Positions 1,066 through 50,338 of a stretch of 64,000 nt of DNA are shown piece by piece. How positions within the stretch are numbered: position 1 is the first letter of the stretch; every line of letters begins with the position of its first letter. Source of the DNA: an uncultured Bacteroidales bacterium (GTDB taxonomy: Bacteria > Bacteroidota > Bacteroidia > Bacteroidales > VadinHA17); the NCBI GenBank assembly GCA_963717685.1, contig OY970346.1, forward strand, positions 1,183,695 to 1,247,694, written 5' to 3'. Under the pieces are notes generated by a model. That model was not told the origin of the DNA. It saw only the letters and a program-made list of their open reading frames with translations, and ran no database searches. A program made the position numbers and the translations under genes.

Positions 1066-1209
1066 AGATAAAATCCCTTCTTCCTTTGACCACTTCAAAA
1101 TCCGGTCAGATCTCACCGAACATACAAAACAAAACAACAAGGATTTAACTCCCCTTTAAAGGGTGGTCAATTTATTCCGGCGAAAAGTGGTCAGAGCCAC
1201 TGGCTTCTC
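1066..1209 (+). mobile_element. IS21-like MITE, full copy (M1)
   Basis: Left arm CTTTGACCACTTCAAAATCCGGTCA, core ACAAAACAAAACAACAA, right arm GGGTGGTCAATTTATTCCGGCGAAAAGTGGTCAG, and end GGCTTCTCC. Confidence 0.75.
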
Positions 1210-1292
1210 CGAAAATCAGGATTATCTGAAAAATCGCTCAAGTAATCGGAAATCAAAAGAGAAATAATCCGGACTTCTATTGAACCGTCAAG

Positions 1293-1487
1293 AAAGGTGT
1301 AAACGATCACCGACCTTTTCGTTTAAATTTAAACGAATATTTAAATAGATCAATAAAAAAATCGGCTGAATTGACCGATTTGAAGTGTTTGAATCAGGAT
1401 TTTTAAATCAGTTAGTGTCTTTGAATATTATTAGGGAGTATTTTTAATTTTGATTAACCCTGGACTATACTTTTCATGGCATTGTAT
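1293..1487 (+). repeat. Repeat family B (~190 bp), copy B1
   Basis: CACCGACCTTTTCGTTTAAATTTAAACGAAT, the hairpin AAAAAAATCGGCTGAATTGACCGATTT, and GTGTTTGAATCAGGATTTTTAAATCAGTTAGTGTCTTTGAATATTAT..GGAGTATTTTTAATT. Confidence 0.7.
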
Positions 1488-1690
1488 GAGTCAGCAGTTG
1501 TAATTCAAGAAAAAATAGTTGTCATTTCAGACAGTATGTCACAATTATTGCAAAAATATGTCAAACCAGTCTTTCGGATGAACATATGTGTTTTAATTAT
1601 GTTAAATCATCTAATTGAGAAGAGATTGATTTTTACTGACATGATCCTAATAAATTCATTATTAATTAAACAATTTAATTTCATAATAAC

Positions 1691-2434
1691 ATGTTCTCTT
1701 TGGCAAATTTATTTACTCAGAATAAGAGTATAGTCAAGTCACGAAGAAAAACCGAGAACAGAAACTTCCGTATTCCCTTAATCGGGGAGCAGGCCCCATC
1801 ATTTACTACTGAATCAACAGCAGGAACAATCCATTTTCCTTTTGATTTTGGCAGTAACTGGAAGGTAATTCTAAGTCACCCGATGGACTTTACTCCTGTT
1901 TGCTCGACAGAATTAATTGAGCTGGCCAACCTTCAGGATGAATTTGAAGAGCTTGGGGTCAAGATCATAACAGTTTCCACAGATCCCCTTGAAACACACA
2001 AACAATGGAAGAAAACTCTTGAACAGATTGAATATAAAGGATATCCCCGACAGAAGATTAATTTTCCAATTGTGGATGATTCCAGTTTGGTCATTGCAAA
2101 GTTATATGGGATGATCCATCTTGAATCGGAAAACAATCGAGATGTCAGGGGCGTATTTGTTATTGATCCCGACAACAAGATCAGAGCAGAATACTTTTAC
2201 CCGCAGGAGGTTGGGAGAAACATGGATGAGCTTCTAAGAACAATTATTGCTCTTCAGACAACAGACAATGACAAAGTTATGACACCAGCCAATTGGAAGA
2301 CCGGGAATGATGTGCTAATCCCCTTTCCCCTAAAAGCTAATATGTCAGCCATGAATAAAGAATCAGGAGAATATTATCAGGTTGCGTGGTTCCTGATATT
2401 TAAAAAAGGGATTGACGGAACCCTATTGGAATAA
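1691..2434 (+). CDS. Peroxiredoxin, 1-Cys (Prx6-like) AhpC/TSA family
   Basis: FTPVCSTELIELA peroxidatic-Cys motif, a thioredoxin-fold pattern, and a C-terminal 1-Cys Prx extension. TAA stop. Confidence 0.9.
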   Translation: MFSLANLFTQNKSIVKSRRKTENRNFRIPLIGEQAPSFTTESTAGTIHFPFDFGSNWKVILSHPMDFTPVCSTELIELANLQDEFEELGVKIITVSTDPLETHKQWKKTLEQIEYKGYPRQKINFPIVDDSSLVIAKLYGMIHLESENNRDVRGVFVIDPDNKIRAEYFYPQEVGRNMDELLRTIIALQTTDNDKVMTPANWKTGNDVLIPFPLKANMSAMNKESGEYYQVAWFLIFKKGIDGTLLE

Positions 2435-2501
2435 AACCGGACAATATGACCATATTCGCTTGACACACATCGCTATAAAACAAATATTCAGCTTTGGATT
2501 A

Positions 2502-2540
2502 TGGTGGTCAATTAATAATTACGGTCAACTATTGTCAATG
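2502..2540 (+). mobile_element. MITE fragment (right arm only)
   Basis: tggtggtcaattaataattacggtcaact. Confidence 0.4.
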
Positions 2541-2594
2541 TATGTGGGGTCGCGCCTTATATGATTATAAGAGATAAAGTGAAATTAAGCTGGT

Positions 2595-3413
2595 TCAATA
2601 AAGTTTGAAATTGAAGGGTACTGTAAACCATACGGGGACGGGTCTTCCGGACTGTTTGCCTGGTTTAAATGGTGGGAATGTTTTTACAACCCTTATCGCT
2701 TCAGCATCAAGTAAGGAATCGACACCTTTTATAATACTGATTTTATCGACATTGCCTTTAGAAGTCACGCAAAACCTTACAAATACTTTTCCCTGGATGT
2801 TGTTGTCTTTTTCTGTCTGCGGATATTTTGTGTTTTCAGCAATGTACTTTAAAAGGCCTGGCAACCCTCCGGGGGGCTCCGGCATCTCTTCAACCGATAT
2901 AAAAGGTTCGGGGTCAGCCTCAGCCTCCTGCGACTCTTCCCTGACTTCCTTCACCGGAATAGCTGCTTCTTCGTTCTTAATTTTGTTCTGTGCATCATCA
3001 GCAGTCATAAGTTGTGACATTTCTTCAGGTTTAACCGAGTCTACGACGACCGGTGGTAAATATTTAGCTTGCTGAAATGCGTCTGTGGGTGGGGGTGGAG
3101 GAGGAGGGGGGGGTGCAACGATTTCATTTGGCGGATCTAAATTTTCCAGCCTGATCTCTACCAGTCTTTCAGTATTATTTCTATGGTTTACCAAAGCTTT
3201 GGCATTAGCGTAAGGAATAAGAATTGCAGCAGCCATAATATTGATTCCAATCAAAAGAGAAATGATGACATTGAAGCTGTACTTCTTTCGCAGGATATAA
3301 GCTCCGTACCTCTTGTTCCTGCGCTCGAATACGATATCATTAAAATCAGGAATTCTGTTCAATTCTCTTGTCATGAAATATTTCATGATCAATATTTTAA
3401 TAAAATATGACAT
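2595..3413 (-). CDS. TonB family energy transducer
   Basis: N-terminal TM anchor (YGAYILRKKYSFNVIISLLIGINIMAAAILI), a PPPPPPPPP proline-rich spacer, and a C-terminal TonB domain (PGGLPGLLKYIAENTKYPQTEKDNNIQGKVFVRFCV..GRPVPVWFTVPFNFKL). The true start may be an internal Met. Confidence 0.85.
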   Translation of the reverse strand: MSYFIKILIMKYFMTRELNRIPDFNDIVFERRNKRYGAYILRKKYSFNVIISLLIGINIMAAAILIPYANAKALVNHRNNTERLVEIRLENLDPPNEIVAPPPPPPPPPTDAFQQAKYLPPVVVDSVKPEEMSQLMTADDAQNKIKNEEAAIPVKEVREESQEAEADPEPFISVEEMPEPPGGLPGLLKYIAENTKYPQTEKDNNIQGKVFVRFCVTSKGNVDKISIIKGVDSLLDAEAIRVVKTFPPFKPGKQSGRPVPVWFTVPFNFKLY

Positions 3414-3551
3414 GACACAAACAAAATGTGAAACAAAATGTTCAGATATATTAAATAAATGATATCAAATTTCTTCTTTTAAAAAACTATCTCATTTGTC
3501 TCATAATCAGCGCCCCCAATGCCGACCATTACATAATTATGAATCATGATC

Positions 3552-3690
3552 TTAAAATCAGCCCTTCCCTGACCACCTCAAAATCCGGTCAGATTCCCAT
3601 TGACATACAATACAAAACAACAAATCTTTAACTCCCCTTCTTAGGGTGGTCAATTTATTAAGGCCAATGGTGAGCCCCGTGAGTAGCGTT
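3552..3690 (+). mobile_element. IS21-like MITE (M2)
   Basis: CCCTGACCACCTCAAAATCCGGTCA .. GGGTGGTCAATTTATTAAGGCCAA. Confidence 0.7.
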
Positions 3691-3771
3691 ATCAACATAC
3701 CAAGAAACCCAGCAAGTTTATTGAGTATATTATGACTGGTTCCCTATTATAATTATAAGATAACTTTAAGA

Positions 3772-4755
3772 TTATCTCAGGAAAGTTCTTATCAAATTAA
3801 ATTCTTTATCCCGTTCTTCAATTTGCGGAAGGTGTCCTGAATGTTCAAACATCACAAACTTAGCTTGCGGACAATATTTTTTGTAGAGTATTGCTAATTT
3901 TGGAACTGCAACACGGTCATATCTTCCAGTAATAATTAAAACTGGCATTTTTAAATTCTTCAATTCATTTCTGACATCAAATTTTCCAACTTCATTTCCA
4001 ACAACAAAATCTCCATCCTCTCCTACATAGTGATAATATAACTTTCTATTGAAATTGTTTGGATAGCTTTTGTCTTCAAGAAGGAGATTAACATTATAAG
4101 GACAATAAAAATACAATAGAGGTGAATGAAATCTACCATATAAATCCGAATGTTTGGCATCTGAACTGCGGTATCCCTGGGAGCGCAAAACCATCAATGA
4201 GTCCCACAGTTCAGGATCATTTTCGGCATATTCACGATTAGAATTATCATTATTTTCCTGCCACATGGAGTTGCTGTATATTCCATCTGCAATAATGAGA
4301 TGCTTAAGATTTATTCCATATTTGACAGCGTACAATTTAGCAATTATACTCCCGAAAGAATGTCCTAACAAATTAATTTTATCGAATCCCAGTGCTTTAC
4401 GAATGCCTTAAACATCTTCGACATCTCGAGCAATGCTATACTGAGAAATATCACTTGTAGTGTCCGATTTCCCTCTCCCAAAGTTATCTATAAATACAAG
4501 GAGAGATGAATCTTTCAGTCCATCAAAATTATGCATATACACATGAGAATTTCCTGGGCCACCTGCAATTAAAAATAATGGATCCCCCTTCCCTTCAGTT
4601 TCAATCCAAAGTTTAGCTCCATTAACAATAACATACTTCCCTGGCGGATGTGTAAATGTAGTTTGAGTTTTAGTACAGCTTAGAAAAAGAAATAAGCTTA
4701 TGATAATAGCTATTATTTTATTTTCGGGAATTAAATTTAAATAAAGATATTTCAT
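3772..4755 (-). pseudogene. Alpha/beta hydrolase (proline iminopeptidase-like) interrupted by one in-frame TAA
   Basis: ORFs 4408-4755 and 3772-4371 are in the same frame. The TAA is at 4408-4410 (plus-strand tta). Read-through gives ..ARDVEDV*GIRKALGFDKINLLGHSFGS.., which joins the GGPG oxyanion region to the GHSFG nucleophile elbow. Confidence 0.8.
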
Positions 4756-4878
4756 TTGGTTATTTTTATTTCGTTCGATTCCTTAATATGTCTCCTAAAG
4801 GTAAACATATTTAACCAATTATAAAGATAATAGGTGACTTAAAACCAATCACAAAAGAAAGATAAGCTGGATTTAAAA

Positions 4879-5023
4879 TGTAAAATCTGTCCTTCTTTGA
4901 CCACCTCAAAAATCCGGTCATAGAGCACGTAACATACAATCCCAAACAACAATAATTTAACTCCCCTTTAAAGGGTGGTCAGTTCAGGACGGCCAAACAA
5001 AATCAAGGTCTCTGGCTTTTCCA
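4879..5023 (+). mobile_element. IS21-like MITE, full (M3)
   Basis: TGTAAAATCTGTCCTTCTTTGACCACC .. GGGTGGTCAG .. CTGGCTTTTCCA. Confidence 0.75.
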
Positions 5024-5161
5024 CCAAGGGGAGGAATGAGGTAAATTAGGACTGATTGCAGTATATTTTTTTGGAATATTCTATATAAAGTTATAATAAA
5101 CAAGAAAGAATCGGGATAATATTTTATAATTATATTTAAAAATTAATAATAATATTCAGGC

Positions 5162-5959: not shown

Positions 5960-5976
5960 TTGGAAATCCTATAATA

Positions 5977-6117
5977 TCCAAAAACCAGACACCTTGAACA
6001 TATTTGTTCTGTCAGATTTCCCTCAACACCCAAAACAAAACAACAAATATTTAACTCCCCTTTAAAGGATGGTCAATTTGAAACGGCCAACGATGGTCAA
6101 GGGCAATGGCTTTTCGA
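5977..6117 (+). mobile_element. IS21-like MITE, diverged left arm (M4)
   Basis: .. GGATGGTCAATTTGAAACGGCCAACGATGGTCAAGGGCAATGGCTTTTCG. Confidence 0.7.
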
Positions 6118-6162
6118 GGCAGACAATTAATTATTTTAAGAAATATTTAGTAAAAGGACAAG

Positions 6163-7645: not shown

Positions 7646-7703
7646 AGTTTTTAATTTTAAATAGTCTTCCAGGCAATTTTATTTGGTCATAGAAATGTTT
7701 CAG

Positions 7704-9539: not shown

Positions 9540-9680
9540 CGTAAAAGTCAGACAGCCTGACCCCAATTGGCCAGTTAGATTATCATTGACATACAATACA
9601 AAAACACAATTGTTTAACTTCTCTTTAGATGGGAGTCAATTTAAACCGGCCAACTATGGGCAAGGGCACTGACTTTACCA
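9540..9680 (+). mobile_element. IS21-like MITE, diverged (M5)
   Basis: CGTAAAAGTCAGACAGCCTGACCCCA .. GGGAGTCAATTTAAACCGGCCAAC .. CACTGACTTTACCA. Confidence 0.6.
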
Positions 9681-13567: not shown

Positions 13568-13701
13568 TGTCAAATATATTTGGCCGGTCTGTTTGCTCTT
13601 AACATTCACAACTAAACAACGAGTACCTGTGACTCCATTATTTGGTGACCAATTTATTGCGGCCAACTATACACGGCCACTTACTTTTTCATTTAGTCAA
13701 T
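13568..13701 (+). mobile_element. Degenerate MITE (M6, inside tandem-duplication unit 1)
   Basis: TTTGGCCGGTC .. TGGTGACCAATTTATTGCGGCCAAC .. CTTACTTTTTCA. Confidence 0.5.
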
Positions 13702-14542: not shown

Positions 14543-14676
14543 TGTCAAATATATTTGGCCGGTCTGTTTGCTCTTAACATTCACAACTAAACAACGAGTA
14601 CCTGTGACTCCATTATTTGGTGACCAATTTATTGCGGCCAACTATACACGGCCACTTACTTTTTCATTTAGTCAAT
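14543..14676 (+). mobile_element. Degenerate MITE (M7, identical to M6, in unit 2)
   Basis: Offset by 975 nt from M6. Confidence 0.5.
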
Positions 14677-15458: not shown

Positions 15459-15598
15459 GAGCTAAAGCCGGACACTTTGACCACATTTAGCCGGTCATTT
15501 TGCAATTAGGATACAATTCTATATACCAATTATTTAACTTCGTCTATTAATGGTCAATTTTCTCCGGCGAAAGGTGGTCAGTGACACTGGCTTTTCCA
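15459..15598 (+). mobile_element. IS21-like MITE, subfamily 2 (M8)
   Basis: GCTAAAGCCGGACACTTTGACCACATTTAGCCGGTC .. TGGTCAATTTTCTCCGGCGAAAGGTGGTCAG .. CTGGCTTTTCCA. Confidence 0.75.
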
Positions 15599-15817
15599 CC
15601 TTATTGTTTATGTCTGTAAATTAAGTCAAATAAGACCAGATTTTGAAGCGGTCAAAGGAAAATGATTCAAAATCATAAGGTCGGGGGATCATGGTCCCCT
15701 CTCGCTATAACGAAAATCAGACACTATCACATTTAACCGGATAGGTGTTTTTTGTTTTATGCCAGGTTTTAGTGGATTTTTAAGTCTTTAAGTAACTCTA
15801 AATTATTTGGGGTATTA

Positions 15818-18503: not shown

Positions 18504-18642
18504 TGCAAGAGCCGGACACCTTGACCACATCTGGCCGGTTCAATTACAATTATCATAAATATTTTAACAACAAACACTTAATTCCGGCCAAGAATAGTCA
18601 ATCTACTGCGGCGAAAAGTGGTTAGAGCCACTGGCTTCTCCA
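18504..18642 (+). mobile_element. IS21-like MITE, subfamily 2 (M9)
   Basis: TGCAAGAGCCGGACACCTTGACCACATCTGGCCGG .. GCGGCGAAAAGTGGTTAGAGCCACTGGCTTCTCCA. Confidence 0.75.
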
Positions 18643-20437: not shown

Positions 20438-20456
20438 ATACCCCATTCTCCTGCAA

Positions 20457-20510
20457 ATAGCGGTCAAATTACTCCTTTGAAATGTGGTCGAAGTGGTCGA
20501 ATTATCCAGA
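20457..20510 (+). mobile_element. MITE fragment (right-arm repeats)
   Basis: agcggtcaaattactcc..aaatgtggtcgaagtggtcg. Confidence 0.4.
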
Positions 20511-20861: not shown

Positions 20862-20999
20862 TGTAAAATCCAACCTTCTTTGACCACACCAAAATTCGGT
20901 CTGCTTTCACCGAACATACAATACAAAACAACAAGGATTTAACTCCCATATGAAGAGCGGTCAATTTATTACGGACAACTGGGGACAGTGGCTTTTCCA
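20862..20999 (+). mobile_element. IS21-like MITE, full (M11)
   Basis: TGTAAAATCCAACCTTCTTTGACCACACC .. GCGGTCAATTTATTACGG .. GTGGCTTTTCCA. Confidence 0.75.
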
Positions 21000-21006: not shown

Positions 21007-21292
21007 TTAAATCTTTATCCCAATCAGCAGAACATCGTCGGTTTGTTCATTTTTCCCTTTCCATGTCTCAAAAGCAGATTCAAGGATAATTTTTTGTTGA
21101 TCCATAGGAGTGTTGCATAGCTCTGTCAAAAGTTTCCTAAGCCTGGAATACATAAATATTTTATTATCTGAACCACCAAATTGATCAGCAAAGCCATCGG
21201 TGAAAAGATAGATAATATCGTTTCTATTTAATGTAAATGTATGATTGGTAAATGGTTTAAAATATTCATCTACTCCTATAGGTTGTTGCAAA
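21007..21292 (-). pseudogene. C-terminal remnant of a SpoIIE/PP2C phosphatase, truncated by a MITE
   Basis: PIGVDEYFKPFTNHTFTLNRNDIIYLFTDGFADQFGG..QTDDVLLIGIKI aligns with the C-terminus of the 716-aa protein at 50373-52523. The upstream 44 codons of the track ORF are MITE sequence. Confidence 0.8.
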
Positions 21293-21425
21293 AGCCGGAG
21301 AGCTTGACCACATTTGGCCGATAGAAATGCAATTACTATAAATAACTTAGCAACAAGAACATAGTTCCGGCTATGGGTGGTCAATATACTCCGGCTAAAA
21401 GTGGTCAAGGCCATTGGCTTTTCCA
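21287..21425 (+). mobile_element. IS21-like MITE, subfamily 2 (M12), 139 bp, identical to M18
   Basis: TGCAAAAGCCGGAGAGCTTGACCAC .. GGGTGGTCAATATACTCCGGCTAAAAGTGGTCAAGGCCATTGGCTTTTCCA. It truncates a SpoIIE gene. Confidence 0.8.
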
Positions 21426-23362: not shown

Positions 23363-23506
23363 TAGGAAAACCATTGCCCCATACCCTATCTGGCCAGCAT
23401 AAATTGACCACCCAATAAAGGGTAGTTAAAAACTTGTTGTTTTGTATTGTATGTTCGGTGAAAGCAGACCGAATTTTGGTGTGGTCAAAGAAGGACGGGT
23501 TTTGTA
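23363..23506 (-). mobile_element. IS21-like MITE, full (M13)
   Basis: The reverse complement contains all blocks, and the plus strand ends ..GGTGTGGTCAAAGAAGGACGGGTTTTGTA. Confidence 0.7.
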
Positions 23507-24585: not shown

Positions 24586-24726
24586 TGGAAACGCCAGTAT
24601 CCTTGCCCATAGTTGTCCGTAATAGATTGACCACCCTTTAAAGTGGAGTTAAATAATTGTTGTTTTGTTTTGTATGTTAATGGTAATATGACCCACCAAA
24701 TGTGGTCAAGACCTCCAGCTTTTGCA
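24586..24726 (-). mobile_element. IS21-like MITE, full (M14)
   Basis: TGGAAACGCCAGT .. ATTGACCACCCTTTAAAG .. CCAAATGTGGTCAAGACCTCCAGCTTTTGCA. Confidence 0.75.
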
Positions 24727-27635: not shown

Positions 27636-27740
27636 CACCACAATCACCCCAACCCGGAGTTATGGAGTTATTGTTTTGTTTTGTATGTTCGTTATTATGT
27701 GACCGGTTTTTGAGATGGTCAAAGAAGGACGGATTTTACA
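27636..27740 (-). mobile_element. MITE, partial (M15)
   Basis: .. TGACCGGTTTTTGAGATGGTCAAAGAAGGACGGATTTTACA. The other arm is degraded. Confidence 0.6.
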
Positions 27741-29825: not shown

Positions 29826-29967
29826 TGGAATAGCTAATGTCCTTAACCACTTTTGGCCTGAATAAAATGACCTCCCAAAACCCGGAGTTAAATCCTTGTT
29901 GTTTTGAATTGTCTGTTCGGTGAAGTCAAACCGGATTTTGAGGTGGCCAATGAGCTAGGCTTTTGCA
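29826..29967 (-). mobile_element. IS21-like MITE, full (M16)
   Basis: TGGAATAGCTAATGTCCTTAACCACTTTTGGCCTGAATAAAATGACCTCCC .. GAGGTGGCCAATGAGCTAGGCTTTTGCA. Confidence 0.75.
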
Positions 29968-31346: not shown

Positions 31347-31438
31347 AAAACCCAGCTGTTGAAGAATTGTTGTTTTTTTTTGGATGTTCGGGGAAATCTG
31401 ACCGGATTTTGAGGTGGTCAAAAAAGAACGGATTTTAA
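31347..31438 (-). mobile_element. MITE, partial (M17)
   Basis: .. CTGACCGGATTTTGAGGTGGTCAAAAAAGAACGGATTTTA. Confidence 0.6.
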
Positions 31439-31589
31439 AAAACATCAGACACTTACAAGACCAATTGTGGGTGTCTTTTTGTTTGGTACCAGTTTGGTGT
31501 CAGGATCTACTATTAATTGATTACTTATCTCTCCAATATGGTCCTGAAATAGGAAGAGTCTCATCATTTGGCCCCTTAATAAACATGGG

Positions 31590-31728
31590 TGCAAAAGCCG
31601 GAGAGCTTGACCACATTTGGCCGATAGAAATGCAATTACTATAAATAACTTAGCAACAAGAACATAGTTCCGGCTATGGGTGGTCAATATACTCCGGCTA
31701 AAAGTGGTCAAGGCCATTGGCTTTTCCA
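31590..31728 (+). mobile_element. IS21-like MITE, subfamily 2 (M18), identical to M12
   Basis: 139 bp identical by eye to 21287-21425. The flanks differ. Confidence 0.8.
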
Positions 31729-32408: not shown

Positions 32409-32699
32409 TACAAGCCAGATATAATAGATATTTGTTTATCTGTTTACCTCTGGCCAAAGGGAAATCTTTTTCCCGAAGGAAGTAGATTCGGGTGAAACCC
32501 AGGAAAGTAAATTATTGCAAGAAAAGTATCATTTTGGGGTATCACATTGGTATATATGGATAAATCGGCCATATTGACCACCCTTAATCGTTTTTAAGAG
32601 ACCATGCTTTTCCGGCAGTGAAAGACCACCCCTAAGTTAACCTCCTTTTTTGCTTCATTTTCATCATGATTTTCAGGGTGATTTTACAAAGTTATTTTT

Positions 32700-33455
32700 T
32701 TAGTTTGTTCCTCCAAGTGATATGATTGTTTTCTTAATCTGTTTTCTCATGGATTCACCAGAGAGTTCAATACGGTGTGCCTGGTGTACGATGCGATCCA
32801 GTATAGCATCTGCAATGGTATTTTCTCCGATAATCTCATACCATTGTAAGACCGGGAGTTGTGAGGTGATGATCGTTGACCGTTTACCATGACGGTCTTC
32901 GATAATCTCCATGAGTGAAGAACGACTTTGATTATCAAAGGGCTGTATCCCAAAGTCATCAAGTATTAACAAGTCCTGCTTTTCAATGCGTGCTATTTCT
33001 TTGATATAGGACCCATCAGCTTTCGACATTTTTAGTTTGGCAAAAAGCTTTGTGGTATTGGCATATAAAACTTTATATCCCAGAGTACATGCCTGATTTC
33101 CGATAGCTGAAGCCACAAAGCTTTTCCCGATGCCAGTACTTCCAGTGATAATAATTGTTTCTGACTTATCAATAAAACTACAATCGGCAAAGCGCATGAT
33201 CTGGTTTTTATCAAGGTTCCGGTCGGTTTCAAAGTCGAGGTGCTCAATATCTGCCTTGTAACGAAAACGGGCTTGATTTATGTGCCGTTCAATACGGAGG
33301 TTGTTACGATGGTCCCATTCCGATTCAACCATGAAAGCTACCATCTCATCTGCTGTCATGCTGGCCATGCGACCGTCTTCAAGTGTGGTTTTAAAGGCCG
33401 TAGCCATTCCCTGGAACTTCATTTGTTTAAGTCGCTGTAATGTTTGCTCATTCAT
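32700..33455 (-). CDS. istB: IS21-family helper ATPase IstB
   Basis: Walker A GSTGIGKS and Walker B LLILDDFG, with the typical IstB length. Confidence 0.95.
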   Translation of the reverse strand: MNEQTLQRLKQMKFQGMATAFKTTLEDGRMASMTADEMVAFMVESEWDHRNNLRIERHINQARFRYKADIEHLDFETDRNLDKNQIMRFADCSFIDKSETIIITGSTGIGKSFVASAIGNQACTLGYKVLYANTTKLFAKLKMSKADGSYIKEIARIEKQDLLILDDFGIQPFDNQSRSSLMEIIEDRHGKRSTIITSQLPVLQWYEIIGENTIADAILDRIVHQAHRIELSGESMRKQIKKTIISLGGTN

Positions 33456-33532
33456 AGATTTTTATTTTTAAAAGTTAATAATAGTGTTAATCCAGCCACG
33501 ATCTTCCCGTGACTGGATAACTGATAAATTGA

Positions 33533-35086
33533 CTATTTGTAATATCCTCCCCCACGAACATTGCGATGCCCGGGCATTTTCTTATTGTCATCTTCTGAGT
33601 CGAAAGGTTCCTGGTCAAGTCGTTTTTCTATGATGGTACGGATAGCATTATAACTGAAGTCGCCATAATATAATGCCCTCCGACAGGCTCTATTCAAACG
33701 ATCACTACCAACATGTATAACAAAACTGAGGATTCCCTGGCATGTTTTATAGGCTTGCTCGGGATGTTGCCTTATCTCAAGAATATGGACAATATAATCC
33801 CTGGTATCATCACCAATAAAGGTTGCCCGCTGAATAAACTTCTCCGCGGTCCAGTCGCTTTTAAACTGGTGGTGGGATGCCAGATGATCTTCGTTGGTGG
33901 TGTATCCGTAGAGTTTAAAATTGCGAGTATATGTTGCTATAAGATCATATCGGTAATATATCTCCACCAGGTCAGAAGTGTAAAGTATGGTAACCTTCTT
34001 TCCAATATACCGGTAAGGGACGCTGTAATAATGTTTGTCTTCAGCCAGACATACATGATTGTTTTTCATTACTGTAACTACTTTCTTCCTTTTAGCCTGG
34101 TACCTGTATTGTGGCAGCGGCTGCAGATCCGATTTCTCTATTTCTTCGAACAATTGCCTTCTGCTATAGGGACGGCCGGATAAGAGTTTGTTGTTGTGAT
34201 CCTCAAGTGCTTCCCTGATAGCAGTATTTAAGTCTGTTAAAGAAAAGAAAGTGCGTTGCTTAATCGTGTAAAAAATAGTCCGGTATATTATTTTAACTGC
34301 TCCCTCAACCAGAGCTTTGTGTTTAGGTTTATAGGGACCGGCCGGAAGCGCTGTCATATGATAATGCTCTACAAAATCACGGAACATCTCGTTAAGCGTT
34401 GGTTCGTACCTGTCACTTTTGATTACTGCCGATTTTAAGTTGTCTGTTACTATGGCCAGTGGCATACCACCATAATAATGAAGAGCATTCTCGCAGGAAC
34501 ATATAAAGTCTTCTTTCCTTTGGGTCATAGATGCCTCAACATAGGTAAGCTGGCTGGACCCCAGGATCGCAACAAAGATTTCTACCGGAACCACTTCCCC
34601 TGTTGCCTGATCAACAAAGGACAGCTTATCGCCTGTATAATCTACATACATCTTGTCACCGCTCTTATGCTCCATGTGCATCGAAGAGTTGACCTTCTTG
34701 CTCCATAGATTATAATGTTCATTAAACTGTGTTTTACGATAGCCATCAGGATGTTTTAAAAAATATTGCTCCCACTGTTTTTCCCGTGTCTCCCCTTTGC
34801 GTTTAAGGGCTTTCTCCATACCAGGAAAGAAGGCTATCAGATCTGCTTTGCGCTGATCTGTCGGTACCTCCTGACGGGGCATTGAAAACAAGGCCTCCAT
34901 CTGAGTATCACTGAGTTTATCAATTTCTTCCAGTGTCTTACCCATGGCAGTAAATTGCCGGATATACTTCTTAACCGTGTTTCGTGTAGCTCCTGTGCGG
35001 ATGCTGATCGATTGCTTACTTACACCCTCGGTGTACATCTTTAAAATACTTCTTGCTTTACTCATAATAATTAAATTGTTAGACAT
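33533..35086 (-). CDS. istA: IS21-family transposase IstA
   Basis: N-terminal HTH (RNTVKKYIRQF) and a DDE/rve-like core. 517 aa, located upstream of istB. Confidence 0.95.
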   Translation of the reverse strand: MSNNLIIMSKARSILKMYTEGVSKQSISIRTGATRNTVKKYIRQFTAMGKTLEEIDKLSDTQMEALFSMPRQEVPTDQRKADLIAFFPGMEKALKRKGETREKQWEQYFLKHPDGYRKTQFNEHYNLWSKKVNSSMHMEHKSGDKMYVDYTGDKLSFVDQATGEVVPVEIFVAILGSSQLTYVEASMTQRKEDFICSCENALHYYGGMPLAIVTDNLKSAVIKSDRYEPTLNEMFRDFVEHYHMTALPAGPYKPKHKALVEGAVKIIYRTIFYTIKQRTFFSLTDLNTAIREALEDHNNKLLSGRPYSRRQLFEEIEKSDLQPLPQYRYQAKRKKVVTVMKNNHVCLAEDKHYYSVPYRYIGKKVTILYTSDLVEIYYRYDLIATYTRNFKLYGYTTNEDHLASHHQFKSDWTAEKFIQRATFIGDDTRDYIVHILEIRQHPEQAYKTCQGILSFVIHVGSDRLNRACRRALYYGDFSYNAIRTIIEKRLDQEPFDSEDDNKKMPGHRNVRGGGYYK

Positions 35087-35257
35087 GAATGATTGGTATT
35101 AATAATACCATCAACGTTAATCATTCATCCTAATAAATCATGATAAAAAAGCAATCCGGATGGGGTGGTCTCTTTACTCCGGTTTTGGGTGGTCAATTTC
35201 CTCCGGTTAAGGGTGGTCAGTTTGCTCCGGCGAGGGGGTGGTCTTTTTGCTCCGGTC

Positions 35258-35569
35258 TCAGGTGATCATTTTGACCGTTTTTTCCAATATGTCCCCTTCG
35301 CAAGCATAACAAAACACTGTTTTACCATTTTTTTGCCTAATAGGGGTAAGCTCAATGAAATTACCAGATAAAGGAATTCCAATTTCCTCTTTAAATTCTC
35401 TTATCGCTGCAGCTAAGGGACCTTCTTCTTCAGTAAATTCTCCTTTTGGTATAGACCAGCAATGCAAATCTTTTTTAACCCAGAAAGGTCCTCCTGGATG
35501 TACTAAAAGTACTTCTAACTTGGAATGAGTTAATCGATATAAGAGAATACCTGCACTTTTCTTTTCCAT
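35258..35569 (-). CDS. NUDIX hydrolase whose 3' end abuts or is replaced by the IS21 terminus
   Basis: Perfect Nudix box GEFTEEEGPLAAAIREFKEEIGI. The last ~9 codons (LEKTVKMIT*) are IS21 end sequence, and the protein is short for its family. Confidence 0.75.
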   Translation of the reverse strand: MEKKSAGILLYRLTHSKLEVLLVHPGGPFWVKKDLHCWSIPKGEFTEEEGPLAAAIREFKEEIGIPLSGNFIELTPIRQKNGKTVFCYACEGDILEKTVKMIT

Positions 35570-36144: not shown

Positions 36145-36284
36145 CAGCTAAAGCCGGACACTTTGACCACATTTAGCCAGTCATTTTGTATTTAGGATAC
36201 AATTCTATATACCAATTATTTAGCTTCTTTCATTAATGGTCAATTTTCTCCAACGAGAGTTAGTCAGAGACACTGGCATTTCCA
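36145..36284 (+). mobile_element. IS21-like MITE, subfamily 2 (M19)
   Basis: GCTAAAGCCGGACACTTTGACCACATTTAGCCAGTC .. TGGTCAATTTTCTCCAACGAGAGTTAGTCAG .. CTGGCATTTCCA. Confidence 0.7.
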
Positions 36285-38234: not shown

Positions 38235-38235
38235 C

Positions 38236-38304: not shown

Positions 38305-38446
38305 TGTAAAATCCGTCCATCTTTGACCACCTCAAAATCCGGTCATCCTTCACCGAACATTCAAAACAAAACAACAATTCTTTAACTCCCCTTTAAAGGG
38401 TGGTCAATTAATTCCTTCCAATTAGGGTCAGATTGTCTGGTTTTTG
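38305..38446 (+). mobile_element. IS21-like MITE (M20)
   Basis: TGTAAAATCCGTCCATCTTTGACCACCTCAAAATCCGGTCA .. GGGTGGTCAATTAATTCC .. GGGTCAGATTGTCTGG. Confidence 0.7.
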
Positions 38447-38454
38447 TAAATTTG
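38447..38454 (+). promoter_or_regulatory. Candidate Bacteroidetes -7 promoter element (TAnnTTTG)
   Basis: TAAATTTG lies about 55 nt upstream of the S8 peptidase ATG. This is a motif match only. Confidence 0.25.
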
Positions 38455-44865: not shown

Positions 44866-45040
44866 GAAAGAAAGGTTGGTGTTAATTACCACCAACCTTT
44901 GTTTAAATTTAAACGGATTGTCATAGAATCTTCAAAAACCTAGCGACAAGCCAAAACCACTTGAACAGGTTGTAATGTAATTATTATGACACGATACCAC
45001 CAGATGTCACCAGATTGAATCTGGTTGCTTCTGGGACTAT
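44866..45040 (+). repeat. Repeat C, copy C6, 5' part (interrupted by IS256)
   Basis: Head hairpin and palindrome, ending ..GGTTGCTTCTGGGACTAT at the IS256 junction. Confidence 0.75.
44871..44905 (+). terminator. Hairpin plus T-rich tail 3' of the S8/cohesin gene pair (this is the head of a repeat-C copy)
   Basis: aaaggttggtg-ttaatta-ccaccaaccttt followed by gttta. Confidence 0.5.
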
Positions 45041-46410: not shown

Positions 46411-46510
46411 GGGACTATTTCTTGTGATGGGAAGGGGAGAAGCTTGGCAAAGGATGATCTTTCACCAGGAACCTTAAAACATAGTAGAAATAATGAATAA
46501 TGTAAAATCC
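46411..46510 (+). repeat. Repeat C, copy C6, 3' part (after IS256; abuts M21)
   Basis: Resumes GGGACTATTTCTTGTGATGGGAAGGGGAGAAGCTTGGCAAAGG... Confidence 0.75.
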
Positions 46511-46621
46511 GTCCTTTTGTGACCACTTCAAAAGACGATCAGATTCCACATAACATACACTATAAAACAACAAGGATTTAACTCCCCTGTAATGGGTGGT
46601 TTGCAAAAACCGTGACAAGCC
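46511..46621 (+). mobile_element. MITE, right arm degraded (M21)
   Basis: TGTAAAATCCGTCCTTTTGTGACCACTTCAAAAG .. ATGGGTGGTTTGC. Confidence 0.6.
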
Positions 46622-47586: not shown

Positions 47587-48792
47587 TCACACTATTTTTT
47601 TCAATCTTAATTGATACAATACAAAAAGGGAAATAACTACAAAGCAAATTCCCAAAAATGTTTCTCCAAGCAACATAATCTTTATGCTATATGCATCATG
47701 CAGCCTGCCATCAAAAAAGGTCATATATGCATAAGGAATGTTACCAATTGAAGAAAGTAAAGCATACTTGGTGGAAGCCAAACCTTTACCAATTGAATGA
47801 AGGACAACGGCAGAGAAAGCAGCATTAGATAATCCAAATGTAAAAGCATATAATAAAACTCCGATTATATATGTTGTTGGTACATAAACAGAAAAACTCA
47901 TTACCAAAGTAACGAGTGCCATCAATGTTCCTGCCCCGAAATATAACCACCATCTGCCTAATCTATCGGCTATCCATCCACCTATTACACAACCTATCAC
48001 ACATATTACTCCACTGAGAGTTCCTGTGATTAAAGCAACTGTATCAGCATTCACCTTCCAATCAGTTGCTACAGATGACCACAAAAAAGAGGCAGCACCA
48101 ATACCAATTGGCATAATAATGACAGCCATAGTAAAAATAGCAACAGGTGAGCGGAATAAATCTCTGATATCAACCGTAATCATTTTAAATCTTTCTTTCA
48201 AGAGTCTATCCTTTTCTGCATAAACTTGTGGGACAAAATGCAGTGCTACCGAGCAGATAAGGATAGCAATGGATAAAATAATAATTGCGGCTTGATAAGA
48301 AAAATGACTTGAAAACCAAATGCCAGCGCCACCACCTATACCTATCCCACCTAAATTACCAGCCTGATACCATCCACCTGCTCTACCTTTCTTTTCTTCA
48401 GGTACTGTTTTAGCCATAAACCCACCAACAGGTGATACAATTAAAGTTGCGGCAATTTGAGATAGGAAAACTGTAATTGTCAATACTCCCATTGAACTAA
48501 TTTTCAGTGGTATGAAACAAAGCAATAATAAAGTTGAAGTGCAAAGACCTATTCCAATCAAATACCATTTATGAAGGCTCAGTGATAAATCTGTCATGGG
48601 TGCCCAAAGGAAACGCCAAATGTTTGCTGACAGTCCTAATGCAGTAATTGATGCTGCTGCTGCAACCGAAAATCCATGTTGTGTTAATAGAAATGGTAGT
48701 GTGACAGAGACAAAGCCACCACTAACGCCATAAGGTAATACAAGAAAAAGAAAAGTAAATGGATTTGCAGTATTTCTTTTAAATGTCATCAT
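47587..48792 (-). CDS. MFS transporter (about 12 TM)
   Basis: Hydrophobic throughout, with an MFS-like loop (DRLGRW). Possibly AmpG-like, but unverified. Confidence 0.75.
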   Translation of the reverse strand: MMTFKRNTANPFTFLFLVLPYGVSGGFVSVTLPFLLTQHGFSVAAAASITALGLSANIWRFLWAPMTDLSLSLHKWYLIGIGLCTSTLLLLCFIPLKISSMGVLTITVFLSQIAATLIVSPVGGFMAKTVPEEKKGRAGGWYQAGNLGGIGIGGGAGIWFSSHFSYQAAIIILSIAILICSVALHFVPQVYAEKDRLLKERFKMITVDIRDLFRSPVAIFTMAVIIMPIGIGAASFLWSSVATDWKVNADTVALITGTLSGVICVIGCVIGGWIADRLGRWWLYFGAGTLMALVTLVMSFSVYVPTTYIIGVLLYAFTFGLSNAAFSAVVLHSIGKGLASTKYALLSSIGNIPYAYMTFFDGRLHDAYSIKIMLLGETFLGICFVVISLFVLYQLRLKKIV

Positions 48793-49163
48793 GACAGATT
48801 GCAGTTACGGGATGGTTATTTCATTAAGCGTTGTTTTAGAATTAGGACACTCTTTGACAGATTATAACAGTCGATTTTCATTATTGCATGAATCATGCTT
48901 TTTTATATTCCTTTTCTTTATAATTAATTTTAGGTGTGGTATGTAATCAAATTTACATCTTTATTTTAAATCATTAAACGGACTCTTTTTATCATAGCAG
49001 AAATTCCGTATCAATATACTATAGTGCTGTAAAGATTTATTTTTCGACAGAATCAATATCATTTTAAAAAGATTTATTTGACTTTGCCTTTTAACTGGAG
49101 TAACTTGCTTCATATTTCTGAATTACAGGTATTTATTTTATCTATTAACCAAATCTCAATCAA

Positions 49164-49661
49164 ATGAAAAAAATTTGTTTAACAATTTCAATTGCTGTAT
49201 TCCTATTATTCTTATTAAACGGAATACAGGCACAAACAAGGCAACCAAAACTTAATCAGGTTGAACTTATGAAGCAATTCATTGGTAACTGGAAGGTTGA
49301 CATGGCAAAAGATACTGTTCTTTATTGGGATGCAAAAGCATTTGGGACAGGATTTGAAAGTTATTTTAAGACAGTTGTAAAAGACAAAATAATTTCAGAA
49401 GGGAAACAACTTTTCGGGTATGATAGTAAACTTGATAAATGTGTTGCCGCTACTATATTTAAGGGGATGGATATTGAGATATGGGCATTGTGGTTTACAT
49501 CAAATAATAAATATGTTATCACCTATTATAGTGATATTTCAAATCCTGACAAGTCATCCTTTAAAATAGATGGAGAATTTACCTCACCAAATTCTTATTC
49601 AGAAACCTTATTTATGAATGGGAAGGCTGTAATGAAATATAATTATGTAAGGGTTAAATAA
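49164..49661 (+). CDS. Secreted hypothetical protein, paralog of 27043-27543
   Basis: See 27043-27543. Confidence 0.6.
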   Translation: MKKICLTISIAVFLLFLLNGIQAQTRQPKLNQVELMKQFIGNWKVDMAKDTVLYWDAKAFGTGFESYFKTVVKDKIISEGKQLFGYDSKLDKCVAATIFKGMDIEIWALWFTSNNKYVITYYSDISNPDKSSFKIDGEFTSPNSYSETLFMNGKAVMKYNYVRVK

Positions 49662-49841
49662 TCAGTTTAAATAAATCAATGTGCTTTGAAAGATATTATT
49701 TTGGGGCATTTTGTTTTTATAAAGTATTAATATACTGATACCTGACTATATTTTTACCAAATCAGATATTATTGGATGTTGCTCTTGTAGGGGAGGAGTA
49801 TTACAAACTTATTTTTTAGGTCAAAAACACCCCATTTTTCT

Positions 49842-49932
49842 CCAAAACCTGGCGTAAACCTGGCGTGAAATAAAAAACCACTTACGAAAAAAACTTGTAA
49901 GTGGTTGATATTCAAGAGTGGGCCCAATTGGG
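49842..49932 (-). repeat. att-like unit iv (inverted relative to units i-iii)
   Basis: The reverse complement reads caattgggcccactcttgaatatcaaccacttacaag..gtaagtggttttttatttcacgccaggtttacgccaggttttgg. Confidence 0.7.
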
Positions 49933-49965
49933 AATTAATCTACTCCCAAGATATATAAGTACTAT

Positions 49966-50222
49966 AGTGTCAATTACCACCAACCTTTGTTTAAATTTAA
50001 ACGAATTGAAATAAAATCCATCCAACATCCGTCAAAAACCTGGCAACAAGTCAAAACCACTTATAAGGGTTGTCATTTAATTTTTAAGATATAATATCAC
50101 CAGATGTCACCAGGTTGATTCTGGTTGCTTCTGGGGTAGTTTCTAAGGATGGGAAGGGGAGATGCTTGGCAAAAGATAATCTGTCACAAGAACTCTTAAA
50201 ACATAGTAGAAATAATGAATAA
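49966..50222 (+). repeat. Repeat C, copy C7 (abuts M22)
   Basis: Full head and body. Confidence 0.7.
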
Positions 50223-50338
50223 TGTAAAATCCGTCCTTCCTTGACCACCTGAGAATCCGGTCATCCTTCACAGAACATACATCATAAACAACAATTTTTT
50301 AACTCCGGATTTGGGTGGTCAATTTGTCCGTTTTTCCA
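50223..50338 (+). mobile_element. MITE, short right arm (M22)
   Basis: TGTAAAATCCGTCCTTCCTTGACCACCTGAGAATCCGGTCA .. TGGGTGGTCAATTTGTCCGTTTTTCCA. Confidence 0.7.

What the first reader, a model, noticed from the sequence alone, without database searches (positions are those of the whole stretch)
1066..50338. Burst of a ~135-bp MITE with IS21-type termini (at least 22 copies in 50 kb) alongside a resident IS21
A 115-145 bp unit fills almost every intergenic gap from 1 to 50 kb, in both orientations. It begins TG(T/C)AAAA(T/G)CC and ends GGCTTTTCCA, so the ends are terminal inverted repeats. Its arms are inverted copies of TGACCAC-N-CCGG. Its right arm, GGGTGGTCAATTTATTCCGGCGAAAAGTGGTCAG, is about 80% identical by eye to the tandem repeats upstream of istA (TGGGTGGTCAATTTCCTCCGGTTAAGGGTGGTCAGTTTGCTCCGG, about 35195-35240). 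The IS itself starts TGGATAAATCGG and ends CGTTTTTTCCA, matching the MITE ends. IS21-family elements are known to have multiple terminal repeats bound by IstA, so these are most simply non-autonomous IS21 derivatives mobilised in trans. At least two subfamilies exist, with TGTAAAATCC-type and TGCAAAAGCC-type left ends. Copies M12 and M18 (139 bp) are identical, which argues for recent movement. One caveat: I could not see convincing target-site duplications by eye.
Basis: partly seen in the sequence, partly recalled or inferred. Interest (0 to 1): 0.65.

Follow-up and report, generated by a model that had tools for sequence, protein, structure and literature searches.

The report
IS21-like mini-repeats punctuating gene arrays
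A ~140-bp repeat built like the two ends of an IS21 insertion sequence sits, almost always in the same orientation, between nearly every gene of a 50-kb strain-variable island in an uncultured wetland Bacteroidales bacterium, and it behaves more like the joints of a shuffled gene-module array than like a recent burst of jumping mini-transposons.

Summary
There are 24 loci of a 139-145-bp unit between 1067 and 50327, including one 100% identical pair. A 2730-bp IS21 (istA/istB) lies at 32557-35286. The unit has IS21 geometry: outward termini TG…CA, a TGACCAC box 18 nt from each terminus, then CCGG, and a second box on the right. It matches both ends of the resident IS in register (34/56 and 31/56 identical; HMM E=9e-8).

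The "burst of a trans-mobilised MITE" reading fits poorly:
- 80 full-length copies show no target-site duplications.
- Window copies are only about 62% identical, no closer to each other than to copies in other species.
- A 97%-identical strain carries the same five units at the same sites.
- The family occurs in about 30 uncultured peat/fen Bacteroidales MAGs. There, 77 of 85 neighbouring copies are co-oriented, and most intervals hold one gene.
- Single gene modules are shared between species with different neighbours.
- The left ~105 nt of a unit travels with the upstream DNA and the right ~37 nt with the downstream DNA.

Best reading: IS21-end-derived units serve as recombination joints of a modular, hypervariable array, resembling IS26 translocatable-unit arrays or integrons. 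The enzyme is not identified.

The parts
1067..1211 (+). unit, full length, A-type left arm, preceded by P repeat
2429..2555 (+). unit, degenerate (127 bp); overlaps the stop codon of the peroxiredoxin ORF
3551..3694 (+). unit, full length
4879..5023 (+). unit, full length, TG…CA
5977..6117 (+). unit, full length; its right arm differs (66%) from the same unit in strain L002 while the left 103 nt are identical
9540..9680 (+). unit, full length; the only copy with a perfect 5-bp flanking repeat (TTATT)
13581..13690 (+). unit, lacks the left terminus (model 32-141); part of a 975-bp tandem duplication
14556..14665 (+). unit, duplicate of 13581-13690
15460..15598 (+). unit, full length, B-type; abuts a partial inverted unit; flanks match 6 of 8
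15599..15659 (-). partial unit (model 15-75) abutting the previous copy
18504..18642 (+). unit, full length, B-type
20448..20506 (+). solo right end (model 82-140), weak hit E=0.007
   Evidence: (D8)
20862..20999 (+). unit, full length, preceded by P repeat
21287..21425 (+). unit, 139 bp, 100% identical to 31590-31728
23363..23506 (-). unit, full length, preceded by a partial P repeat
24586..24726 (-). unit, full length
27644..27740 (-). left part only (model 2-97), preceded by P repeat
29826..29967 (-). unit, full length; B-type outer arm with A-type inner arm (recombinant)
31349..31439 (-). left part only (model 2-90)
31590..31728 (+). unit, 139 bp, identical twin of 21287-21425
32557..35286 (-). 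IS21-family element (istA 33533-35086, istB 32700-33455). It has 5 GACCACCC boxes at 24-bp spacing at the istA side (35154-35270) and 3 at the istB side (32575-32635). It interrupts a NUDIX gene.
36146..36284 (+). unit, full length, B-type
38305..38448 (+). unit, full length, preceded by a partial P repeat
46501..46600 (+). left part only (model 2-98), preceded by a P repeat that is split by an IS256-like pseudogene
50223..50327 (+). short variant with a single right box followed by ATTTGTCCGTTTTTCCA, very like the IS end GACCGTTTTTTCCA; last unit of the array

Best explanation
The ~140-bp units are miniature derivatives of an IS21 lineage that lives in the same genomes. Each has a left end with one IstA-type box (L1), a 45-nt A-rich centre, and a right end with two direct boxes (R2, R1), closed by outward TG…CA termini.

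They are not a recent burst. They form an old family shared by many uncultured wetland Bacteroidales. In those genomes they punctuate hypervariable arrays, usually one gene per interval, with the units in direct orientation and the genes in either orientation.

Modules consisting of a gene plus a unit are reassorted within and between genomes by recombination inside the units. The crossover zone runs from the conserved centre to the inner right box, about positions 65-110. As a result the left ~105 nt travels with the upstream module and the right ~37 nt with the downstream module. This explains three things together: the co-orientation, the lack of target-site duplications, and the diversity of units within one array.

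The outcome resembles arrays of directly oriented IS26 copies built from translocatable units, or integron cassette arrays.

Shown here: the unit architecture, its similarity to the IS ends, the co-orientation, the absence of TSDs, the mosaic linkage, cross-species sharing of single modules, and strain variability of the island.

Inferred: that the exchange is catalysed or assisted by the IstA/IstB of this IS lineage acting on its cognate boxes, as opposed to host homologous recombination; and that circular or linear gene+unit intermediates exist.
For: Architecture and IS similarity:
- In-register matches to both IS ends, 34/56 and 31/56 against 14.4 +/- 3.3 for random 56-mers.
- HMM hit on the IS repeats at E=9e-8, plus terminal in-register hits, repeated in the IS relatives L067 and L069.
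- Box motif differs in a distant IS21.
- 74% of 184 copies reach both termini.

Array behaviour:
- 77 of 85 adjacent pairs are co-oriented.
- 67 of 99 intervals hold one ORF. Gene strand relative to unit strand is 53:53 in foreign loci.
- No TSD in 80 copies.
- Within-locus identity 0.618 equals between-locus identity 0.625.
- 222 of 264 ORF clusters are singletons.

Module exchange:
- One-module homologies between species with unrelated neighbours: L030/L058/L061; window 6173-7008 with L058; window 1662-2420 with L059.
- Pairs sharing only the left flank (n=32) are elevated in unit positions 1-106 and at or below background beyond. Pairs sharing only the right flank (n=10) are elevated from about position 103.
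- The same switch is seen between two 97%-identical strains at unit 5977-6117.
- A chimeric unit in L040/L017/L022 joins an inverted L1 box to an R1 arm at the box.
- Six copies combine a B-type outer left arm with an A-type inner arm, with the junction at the L1 box. Left-arm type and right-arm type are not associated.

Context:
- Window 9334-53085 is replaced by 2.5 kb in strain L002.
- Published analogues are arrays interspersed with directly oriented IS26 formed from translocatable units without new TSDs (PMC4196232, PMC7885326).
- IstA acts on single and tandem elements and has a cointegrase isoform (PMC10122671).
Against: - No intermediate (circle) and no strain-level gain or loss of a single module bounded by units was observed. 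The one large strain difference has its left breakpoint in a paralogous gene 5' region (9334), not in a unit.
- The 655-bp 99% inverted duplication (21556-22210 / 37581-38235) does not end in units.
- The crossover zone coincides with the best-conserved stretch of the unit, so ordinary homologous recombination could explain it without any dedicated enzyme.
- The left-flank-linked set is dominated by one composite family (P repeat + unit), so the 32 pairs are not independent events.
- IstA is reported to need two complete direct repeats per end (PMC10122671), and the unit's left end has only one clear box.
- No conservative, IS26-like reaction is known for IS21.
- Only 1 of 59 foreign array loci holds an IS21.
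- Reciprocal arm recombinants (A-type outer, B-type inner) were not seen, 0 against 6.
Confidence: 0.5

Rival explanations
1. Classical MITE. Each unit was inserted on its own by the IS21 transposase acting in trans. Today's pattern reflects old insertions, decayed duplications and some targeting bias.
For: - IS21-type termini and boxes in register with the resident IS.
- Discrete ends in about 3/4 of copies.
- One identical pair whose identity stops exactly at TG and CA, with unrelated flanks.
- Two copies with possible duplications: TTATT 5/5 at 9540, and 6/8 at 15460, against 0/240 and 3/240 in cross-pairings.
- Unit termini abutting the centre of another unit in the window and in L008, as expected from insertion into, or strand transfer to, another unit.
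- The IS lineage is abundant in the same habitats.
Against: - No TSD excess in 80 copies, including the identical pair.
- 91% co-orientation of neighbours.
- Units cluster at one per 2-3 kb in islands and are near absent outside them: 0 in window 50.4-64 kb, 0 in L067, 1 in the 19 kb of L068.
- Copies within a genome are no more alike than between species, so there was no burst.
- No empty site was found.
- Flank-linked mosaicism inside units.
Confidence: 0.2
2. A dedicated integron-like cassette system. The unit is an attachment site for a site-specific recombinase not yet identified, for instance a tyrosine recombinase as in Bacteroidales rAID-1 arrays. On this view the likeness to IS21 ends is secondary.
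For: - Co-oriented sites, mostly one per gene.
- Each module carries its own diverged site, and modules are shared across species.
- Exchange points lie at or near short conserved boxes.
- A tyrosine recombinase gene (53352-54560) lies next to the array end here and in relatives, with the units downstream in one orientation.
- rAID-1 shows that Bacteroidales do have recombinase-associated arrays with conserved intergenic motifs (10.1101/471110, PMC12247911).
Against: - The integrase is separated from the array by a displaced tRNA-Met 3' fragment and looks like the integrase of an island inserted in that tRNA.
- It scores far below the XerC/XerD cut-offs, 40 bits against 330.
- RNAalifold finds no conserved hairpin in 87 copies, and there is no GTTRRRY/RYYYAAC core.
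- Genes are not co-oriented with the sites.
- The detailed in-register match to IS21 termini, including TG…CA, would be left unexplained.
Confidence: 0.15
3. A host-maintained intergenic element, REP-like. On this view the unit is a binding platform for a host protein, or an insulator or terminator, inherited with neighbouring genes. The IS would have adopted similar sites, or simply share ancestry with them.
For: - The centre and the boxes are more conserved than the termini across about 30 species.
- Units occur at equivalent places after the same gene in different species: peroxiredoxin in the window and L059, and next to glnS in L013, L014 and L029.
- Units are stable between close strains.
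Against: - No conserved secondary structure and no Rfam family.
- No fixed relation to gene ends or strand.
- Units are confined to variable islands rather than to all intergenic regions.
- Many truncated and chimeric copies exist.
- TG…CA termini and IS21 register are hard to explain by function alone.
Confidence: 0.1

Closest known systems
IS21-family insertion sequences and their terminal inverted repeats (L1/L2, R1/R2 IstA sites; PMC10122671)
   Same: - Outward 5'-TG…CA-3' termini.
- The box lies at the same distance (18 nt) from the terminus as in the resident IS, followed by CCGG.
- Two direct boxes about 24 bp apart at the right end.
- 31-34 of 56 terminal bases are identical in register to the resident IS.
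   Different: - 140 bp with no genes.
- Only one clear box at the left end.
- No target-site duplications.
- Co-oriented arrays instead of scattered copies.
MITEs (non-autonomous derivatives of DDE insertion sequences)
   Same: - Short and non-coding.
- Terminal inverted repeats like those of a co-resident IS.
- Many copies, subfamilies, intergenic location.
   Different: - No TSDs and no empty sites found.
- No within-genome similarity excess.
- Orientation strongly concordant.
- Left and right parts are inherited with different flanks.
- My literature searches found no description of an IS21-derived MITE. This is absence in the held library only.
IS26 translocatable units / pseudo-compound arrays (PMC4196232, PMC7885326)
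   Same: - Directly oriented repeats interspersed with single passenger segments of arbitrary gene orientation.
- No duplications around internal copies.
- Modules shared between replicons.
   Different: - The repeats here are 140-bp non-coding units, not full ISs.
- The related transposase is IS21 family (IstA + IstB), not IS6 family.
- The reaction has not been demonstrated.
Integron cassette arrays (attC sites)
   Same: - One co-oriented site per cassette.
- Each cassette carries its own diverged site.
- The site is split asymmetrically between neighbouring cassettes.
- Very diverse gene content.
   Different: - No IntI and no attC core motifs.
- No conserved hairpin.
- Cassette genes are not co-oriented.
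rAID-1 recombinase-associated arrays of gut Bacteroidales (10.1101/471110; PMC12247911)
   Same: - Found in Bacteroidales.
- Low-GC arrays of short genes with conserved intergenic motifs.
- A tyrosine recombinase gene at one end, with its stop codon facing the array.
   Different: - rAID genes are co-oriented immunity genes. Here the orientation is mixed and no immunity domain was seen.
- The recombinase here is explained by a tRNA-Met integration site.
- The 21-mer scan of 185,579 species genomes hit only environmental MAGs.

Membership tests
IS21-derived MITE | Short non-coding element with terminal inverted repeats resembling those of an IS21-family element | tested here: met
   - Units are 139-145 bp.
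- In-register identity to the IS ends is 34/56 and 31/56, against a random 14.4 +/- 3.3.
- HMM E=9e-8 on the IS repeats.
IS21-derived MITE | Terminal 5'-TG … CA-3' | tested here: met
   - The identical pair begins at TG and ends at CA.
- The right CCA is conserved at about 70-80%.
- The left TG is conserved at only about 40% across 97 copies.
IS21-derived MITE | Two or more direct IstA-binding repeats in each end (needed for integration in vitro, PMC10122671) | tested here: inconclusive
   The right end has two boxes (R2, R1). The left end has one clear box and at most a degenerate second one.
IS21-derived MITE | Target-site duplication of family-typical length (4-8 bp) flanking copies | tested here: not met
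   Among 80 full-length copies, for k=4,5,6,8 and offsets of +/-1, observed counts equal permutation expectation. In the window, 14 of 16 copies have none.
IS21-derived MITE | Presence/absence (empty-site) polymorphism at unit boundaries | tested here: not met
   - 5 of 5 units are shared with strain L002.
- A flank-junction search over 125 copies found no empty site.
- A metagenome scan for the empty site of 31590 found nothing.
- Sampling of close strains was small.
IS21-derived MITE | Recent amplification: copies within a genome more alike than between genomes | tested here: not met
   Within-locus identity is 0.618 against 0.625 between loci. The window median is 0.62, with 1 of 120 pairs at or above 0.9.
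IS21-derived MITE | Mobilisation by IstA/IstB in trans | not testable with these tools
   Needs a transposition or binding assay.
Integron | IntI-type integrase and attI next to the array | tested here: not met
   The only tyrosine recombinase (53352-54560) scores 40 bits against a cut-off of 330 for XerD and 26 against 220 for the XerA/integron-integrase model. It sits beside a tRNA-Met fragment.
Integron | attC: imperfect palindrome folding as a hairpin, with RYYYAAC / GTTRRRY cores | tested here: not met
   RNAalifold on 87 copies gives 0 consensus pairs. The cores are absent from the consensus.
Integron | Co-oriented sites, one per cassette | tested here: met
   77 of 85 neighbours are co-oriented. 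67 of 99 intervals hold one ORF.
Integron | Cassette ORFs co-oriented with the sites | tested here: not met
   53:53 in foreign loci and 10:28 in the window.
IS26-type translocatable-unit array | IS6/IS26-family transposase and full IS copies as the repeats | tested here: not met
   The repeats are non-coding 140-bp units. The only related transposase is IS21 family.
IS26-type translocatable-unit array | Directly oriented repeats interspersed with passenger segments, without duplications around internal copies | tested here: met
rAID-1 | XerD-family recombinase followed by co-oriented short immunity genes with conserved intergenic motifs | tested here: not met
   Genes are not co-oriented. Pfam shows ordinary enzymes, transporters and hypotheticals, with no immunity domain. 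The motif sequence of rAID-1 was not available.

The most novel reading that the evidence does not exclude
Environmental Bacteroidales may carry a gene-capture platform that has not been described. In it, miniature IS21 ends (IstA-binding boxes) serve as the joints of cassette-like modules. IstA/IstB, or a relative, would carry out a conservative, orientation-preserving exchange between units. That would make it an IS21-based counterpart of integrons and IS26 translocatable units, building islands of 50 kb or more next to tRNA-Met.
Probability: 0.3. Interest if true: 0.85.

Novelty: new variant of a known kind. Interest (0 to 1): 0.62.

Why it matters
If the units really are exchange points, this would be a third way, besides integrons and IS26-type units, in which bacteria assemble and shuffle single-gene modules. 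It would also give IS21-type ends, and possibly the IstA/IstB machinery, a role beyond moving the IS itself.

The sequences needed to test this are in hand: one IS and 24 cognate units in a single window.

There is also a practical point. The family is abundant in peat and fen Bacteroidales MAGs and breaks short-read assemblies at each unit. One same-sample contig ends at neighbouring repeats.

Even under the modest reading, an IS21-derived miniature element would be new to the literature I could search.

Tried and rejected
- **Rfam:** gathering threshold on the whole window gave no family. E-value mode on 500-1700 gave only a sub-threshold sxy hit.
- **tRNA scan:** no intact tRNA in the window or in L002.
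- **Structured DNA/RNA:** RNAalifold on 87 copies gave no consensus pair. The attC-like or REP-like hairpin idea was dropped.
- **TSDs:** own-flank versus cross-flank test in the window and a permutation test on 80 copies gave no signal.
- **Composite-transposon idea (left flank of unit i matching right flank of unit j):** 0 of 240 exact matches of 5 bp or more.
- **Empty sites:** the flank-junction BLAST found only a 116-nt indel unrelated to a unit. The metagenome pattern for the 31590 site found nothing.
- **Exact-protein look-ups for strain comparison inside the variable region:** IstA, 31941-32408 and 28417-29697 are not on record. 18944-20437 occurs only on a 1.9-kb contig.
- **Plasmid and viral collections:** no match.
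- **Replication-strand bias as the cause of co-orientation:** GC skew against unit orientation was 32:21, p=0.17. This is not supported but not excluded with 8-kb loci.
- **Integrase as the array recombinase:** its neighbourhood is conserved, but this is explained by a shared tRNA-Met fragment.
- **Local duplication as the source of arrays:** rejected, because 222 of 264 ORF clusters are singletons and units within a locus are no more alike than between loci.
- **Abutted IRR|IRL junction model (units as junctions of adjacent transposons):** rejected, because the box polarity puts both termini on the outside of the unit.
- **Consensus promoter/terminator scan:** uninformative for Bacteroidota.

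Full report
**1. What is there**

A repeat search and two independent profile searches confirm a 139-145-bp unit at 24 loci between 1067 and 50327. Sixteen copies are full length. Four lack the right ~40-50 nt, two lack the left terminus, one is a solo right end, and one is a partial copy abutting another unit. There is none in 50.4-64 kb.

Copies 21287-21425 and 31590-31728 are identical. The identity begins exactly at TG and ends exactly at CA, with unrelated flanks.

The consensus of 97 full-length copies (window plus other genomes) is TTTAAAATCCGTCCTTCTTTGACCACTTCAAAATCCGGTCTGATTACACTTAACATACATAACTAAACAACAAGTATTTAACTCCGGATTTGGGTGGTCAATTTATTCCGGCCAAATATGGTCAAGGTCACTGGCTTTTCCA. Its parts are:
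- a left arm with one TTGACCAC box followed by CCGG;
- an A-rich centre;
- an inner right box, GGTGGTCAA (R2);
- an outer right box, TGGTCAA (R1);
- outward termini.

The IS21 element is real. IstA and IstB pass the NCBIfam cut-offs. Its ends, 32557 and 35286, are fixed by three foreign copies that are 79-90% identical with unrelated flanks. It interrupts a NUDIX gene whose frame continues across the insertion. Only an ambiguous duplication is visible: ATA, or ATATA/ATATG at 4 of 5.

**2. Is the unit IS21-like?**

Yes. Reading inward from the terminus, four sequences share the same layout: the unit's right end, the B-type left end, and both IS ends. Each has TGGAAAA-like bases at 1-7, the box at 19-25 and CCGG at 32-35. 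The unit's right end and the istA-side IS end also carry a second box at 44-51.
- The unit's right end is identical to the istA-side IS end at 34 of 56 positions (counted directly from the sequences printed).
- It is identical to the istB-side end at 31 of 56 positions. Random 56-mers of the window give 14.4 +/- 3.3, with a fraction of 3e-4 reaching 31.
- A profile that contains no IS sequence hits the IS subterminal repeats at E=9e-8. It aligns both IS termini to the model's last positions and does the same in the IS relatives L067 and L069.
- A distant IS21 in L012 (46% IstA identity) uses TTGACCCCC boxes instead, so the resemblance is specific to this IS lineage.
- That lineage is common in metagenomes.

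Published work defines IS21 ends by L1/L2 and R1/R2 repeats and a terminal CA, and reports that IstA needs two complete repeats per end (PMC10122671). The unit meets this on the right and only doubtfully on the left.

**3. Why it is not a simple MITE burst**

- *No duplications.* In the window 14 of 16 full-length copies have none, including the identical pair. Among 80 full-length copies from all genomes, the counts of matching flanks for k=4, 5, 6 and 8 at nine offset combinations equal permutation expectation.
- *Old copies.* Median pairwise identity in the window is 0.62, and only the one pair exceeds 0.9. Copies within a locus (0.618) are no closer than copies from different species (0.625).
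- *Stable sites.* A metagenome contig (L002) is 97.1% identical to window 1-9334 and carries all five units at the same sites. No empty site turned up in a flank-junction search over 125 copies or in a metagenome scan.
- *Wide distribution.* A 21-mer from the left arm found 59 loci in about 34 assemblies among 185,579 species genomes. About 28 of these are labelled Bacteroidales, Bacteroidia, Bacteroidota or Rikenellaceae, from peat, fen and Danish soil and sediment surveys. Four loci were chance hits without a unit. PLSDB plasmids and IMG/VR gave nothing.
- *Co-orientation.* In those 8-kb loci, 77 of 85 neighbouring units point the same way (p=3e-15). The window shows blocks of 13 (+), 5 (-) and 5 (+), apart from the nested partial copy.
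- *Clustering.* Density is one unit per 2-3 kb inside arrays and almost none outside. There are none in window 50.4-64 kb, none in the first 7.6 kb of L002, none in L067, and one in the 19 kb of L068.

**4. Array behaviour**

Of 99 intervals between co-oriented units, 67 hold a single ORF. Interval length has a median of about 1.2 kb. Gene strand relative to the unit is 53:53 in foreign loci.

Gene content is extremely diverse: 348 ORFs fall into 264 clusters, of which 222 are singletons. It includes ordinary enzymes and transporters, and a glnS gene sits at an array edge.

Homology between arrays of different species is typically one module long, with unrelated neighbours. Examples are L030/L058/L061 at 85-90%, window 6173-7008 with L058 at 82%, and window 1662-2420 with L059 at 83%.

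Within the unit, linkage switches.
- Pairs that share only the left flank (n=32) show elevated identity from position 1 to about 106, and background or below after that.
- Pairs that share only the right flank (n=10) show elevated identity from about position 103.
- Individual alignments place the switch between position 88 and about 110, in and around the inner box.
- The same switch separates the two 97%-identical strains at unit 5977-6117.
- A chimeric unit present in L040, L017 and L022 joins an inverted L1 box directly to an R1 arm.
- Six copies have a B-type outer arm joined to an A-type inner arm at the L1 box.
- Left-arm type is not associated with right-arm type.

There are caveats. 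The left-linked set is dominated by one composite family (P repeat + unit). The switch zone is also the best-conserved part of the unit, so homologous recombination cannot be excluded. Reciprocal arm recombinants were not seen.

**5. Mechanism**

The pattern consists of direct orientation, one unit per module, arbitrary gene orientation, no duplications, and modules drawn from a cross-species pool, each with its own diverged unit. This is the pattern produced by insertion and excision of gene+unit modules through recombination between units. It is not the pattern produced by independent transposition.

The closest documented analogue is the IS26 translocatable unit, which builds arrays interspersed with directly oriented IS26 copies without new duplications (PMC4196232, PMC7885326). 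Integron arrays are the other analogue.

Because the boxes are those of a co-resident IS21 lineage, IstA/IstB are the obvious candidate proteins. IS21 is known for tandem-dependent cointegrate formation and a cointegrase isoform (PMC10122671). This step is inference, and host recombination may suffice.

Some true transposase activity is suggested by unit termini joined to the centre of other units (window 15598/15599 and L008 1809/1810) and by two possible duplications.

**6. Alternatives examined**

- A hairpin-type site (attC-like or REP-like) is not supported. RNAalifold finds no consensus pair in 87 copies, and Rfam has no match.
- The tyrosine recombinase at 53352-54560 adjoins the array here and in relatives, with units downstream in one orientation. 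However, a displaced tRNA-Met 3' fragment lies between them. The gene therefore looks like the integrase of an island inserted in that tRNA, and it scores far below the Xer cut-offs.
- rAID-1 arrays of gut Bacteroidales share the general idea of a recombinase, short genes and conserved intergenic motifs. They differ in having co-oriented immunity genes (10.1101/471110; PMC12247911).
- Unit orientation does not follow GC skew: 32:21, p=0.17.

**7. Verdict**

The IS21-type nature of the termini is supported. The 'burst' and simple trans-mobilisation reading is not supported.

The most likely description is an old, lineage-wide family of IS21-end-derived units acting as joints of a hypervariable, modular gene array downstream of tRNA-Met. 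Of that array, 44 kb (9334-53085) is replaced by 2.5 kb in a closely related strain.

In the literature I could search, I found no description of IS21-derived miniature elements or of such arrays.

Noticed in passing
window 9334-53085; L002 17617-20133: A related strain (L002, 97% identical over window 1-9334) has only 2.5 kb where the window has 44 kb. It rejoins the window at 53085 (92%). The left breakpoint lies in the 5' region of a paralogous gene family (6701-6927 resembles 9111-9337).
   Followed up: partly
window 53086-53210 (-), also 24974-25071 (+), 26769-26857 (+), 28021-28112 (+), 49841-49933 (-): There are five copies of a ~95-nt segment holding the 3' part of a tRNA-Met gene plus its terminator hairpin. 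No intact tRNA occurs in the window. Their orientation relative to the units is constant. The segment also lies next to integrase relatives in other metagenomes.
   Followed up: partly
window 53352-64000: This is an integrative element beside the tRNA fragment. It carries a tyrosine integrase (53352-54560), small hypothetical ORFs, YgjP-like and PAD_porph proteins, a type I restriction HsdR (59596-62667) and a RecD-like helicase fragment (62673-63839). It contains no units.
   Followed up: partly
window 814-1066, 20600-20850, 23509-23642(-), 27743-27987(-), 38239-38302, 44877-45035 + 46426-46498, 49964-50220; also L002, L047, L062: A ~250-nt non-coding repeat ('P') always abuts the left end of an A-type unit and is variably truncated on its far side. 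It starts with a terminator-like hairpin, GGTG-N8-CACC, followed by a T-rich stretch. It has no Rfam match.
   Followed up: partly
window 1266-1500, 18643-18818, 22180-22373(-), 37392-37611: A second ~230-nt intergenic repeat ('Q') shares with P the hairpin plus the perfect palindrome TCGTTTAAATTTAAACGA. The motif has 14 matches in the window against 0.14 expected. Function unknown.
   Followed up: no
window ~45036-46425: An IS256-family (Transposase_mut) element, with its transposase split into two ORFs (45112-45918 and 45940-46302), is inserted into a P repeat.
   Followed up: no
window 21556-22210 and 37581-38235: A 655-bp inverted duplication at 99% identity carries a ~150-aa ORF. It is flanked on one side by Q repeats at 87% identity. 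Its ends are not in units. It could mediate inversion of 22.2-37.6 kb.
   Followed up: no
window 13414-13713 and 14389-14688: A tandem duplication with a 975-bp period (98% identity) covers a module made of a 179-aa ORF plus a unit.
   Followed up: no
window 3772-4755: An alpha/beta-hydrolase gene is split into two ORFs (199 and 115 aa). The orthologue in L002 is intact at 327 aa.
   Followed up: no
window 35287-35569 and 32409-32556 (-): A NUDIX hydrolase gene is interrupted by the IS21. The reading frame continues across the joined flanks, giving a ~130-aa product.
   Followed up: yes
L038, L066: Contigs binned as Bathyarchaeia and Chrysiogenales are 98.8% and 99.8% identical to Bacteroidales/Bacteroidota contigs (L027, L052) that carry units. 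They are probably binning errors.
   Followed up: no
L017 ~5770-6050 (rc), L022, L040 2540-2600: A 116-nt segment flanked by TTATA is present in L017 and L022 and absent in L040. It lies between a chimeric unit and a short B-type unit.
   Followed up: partly
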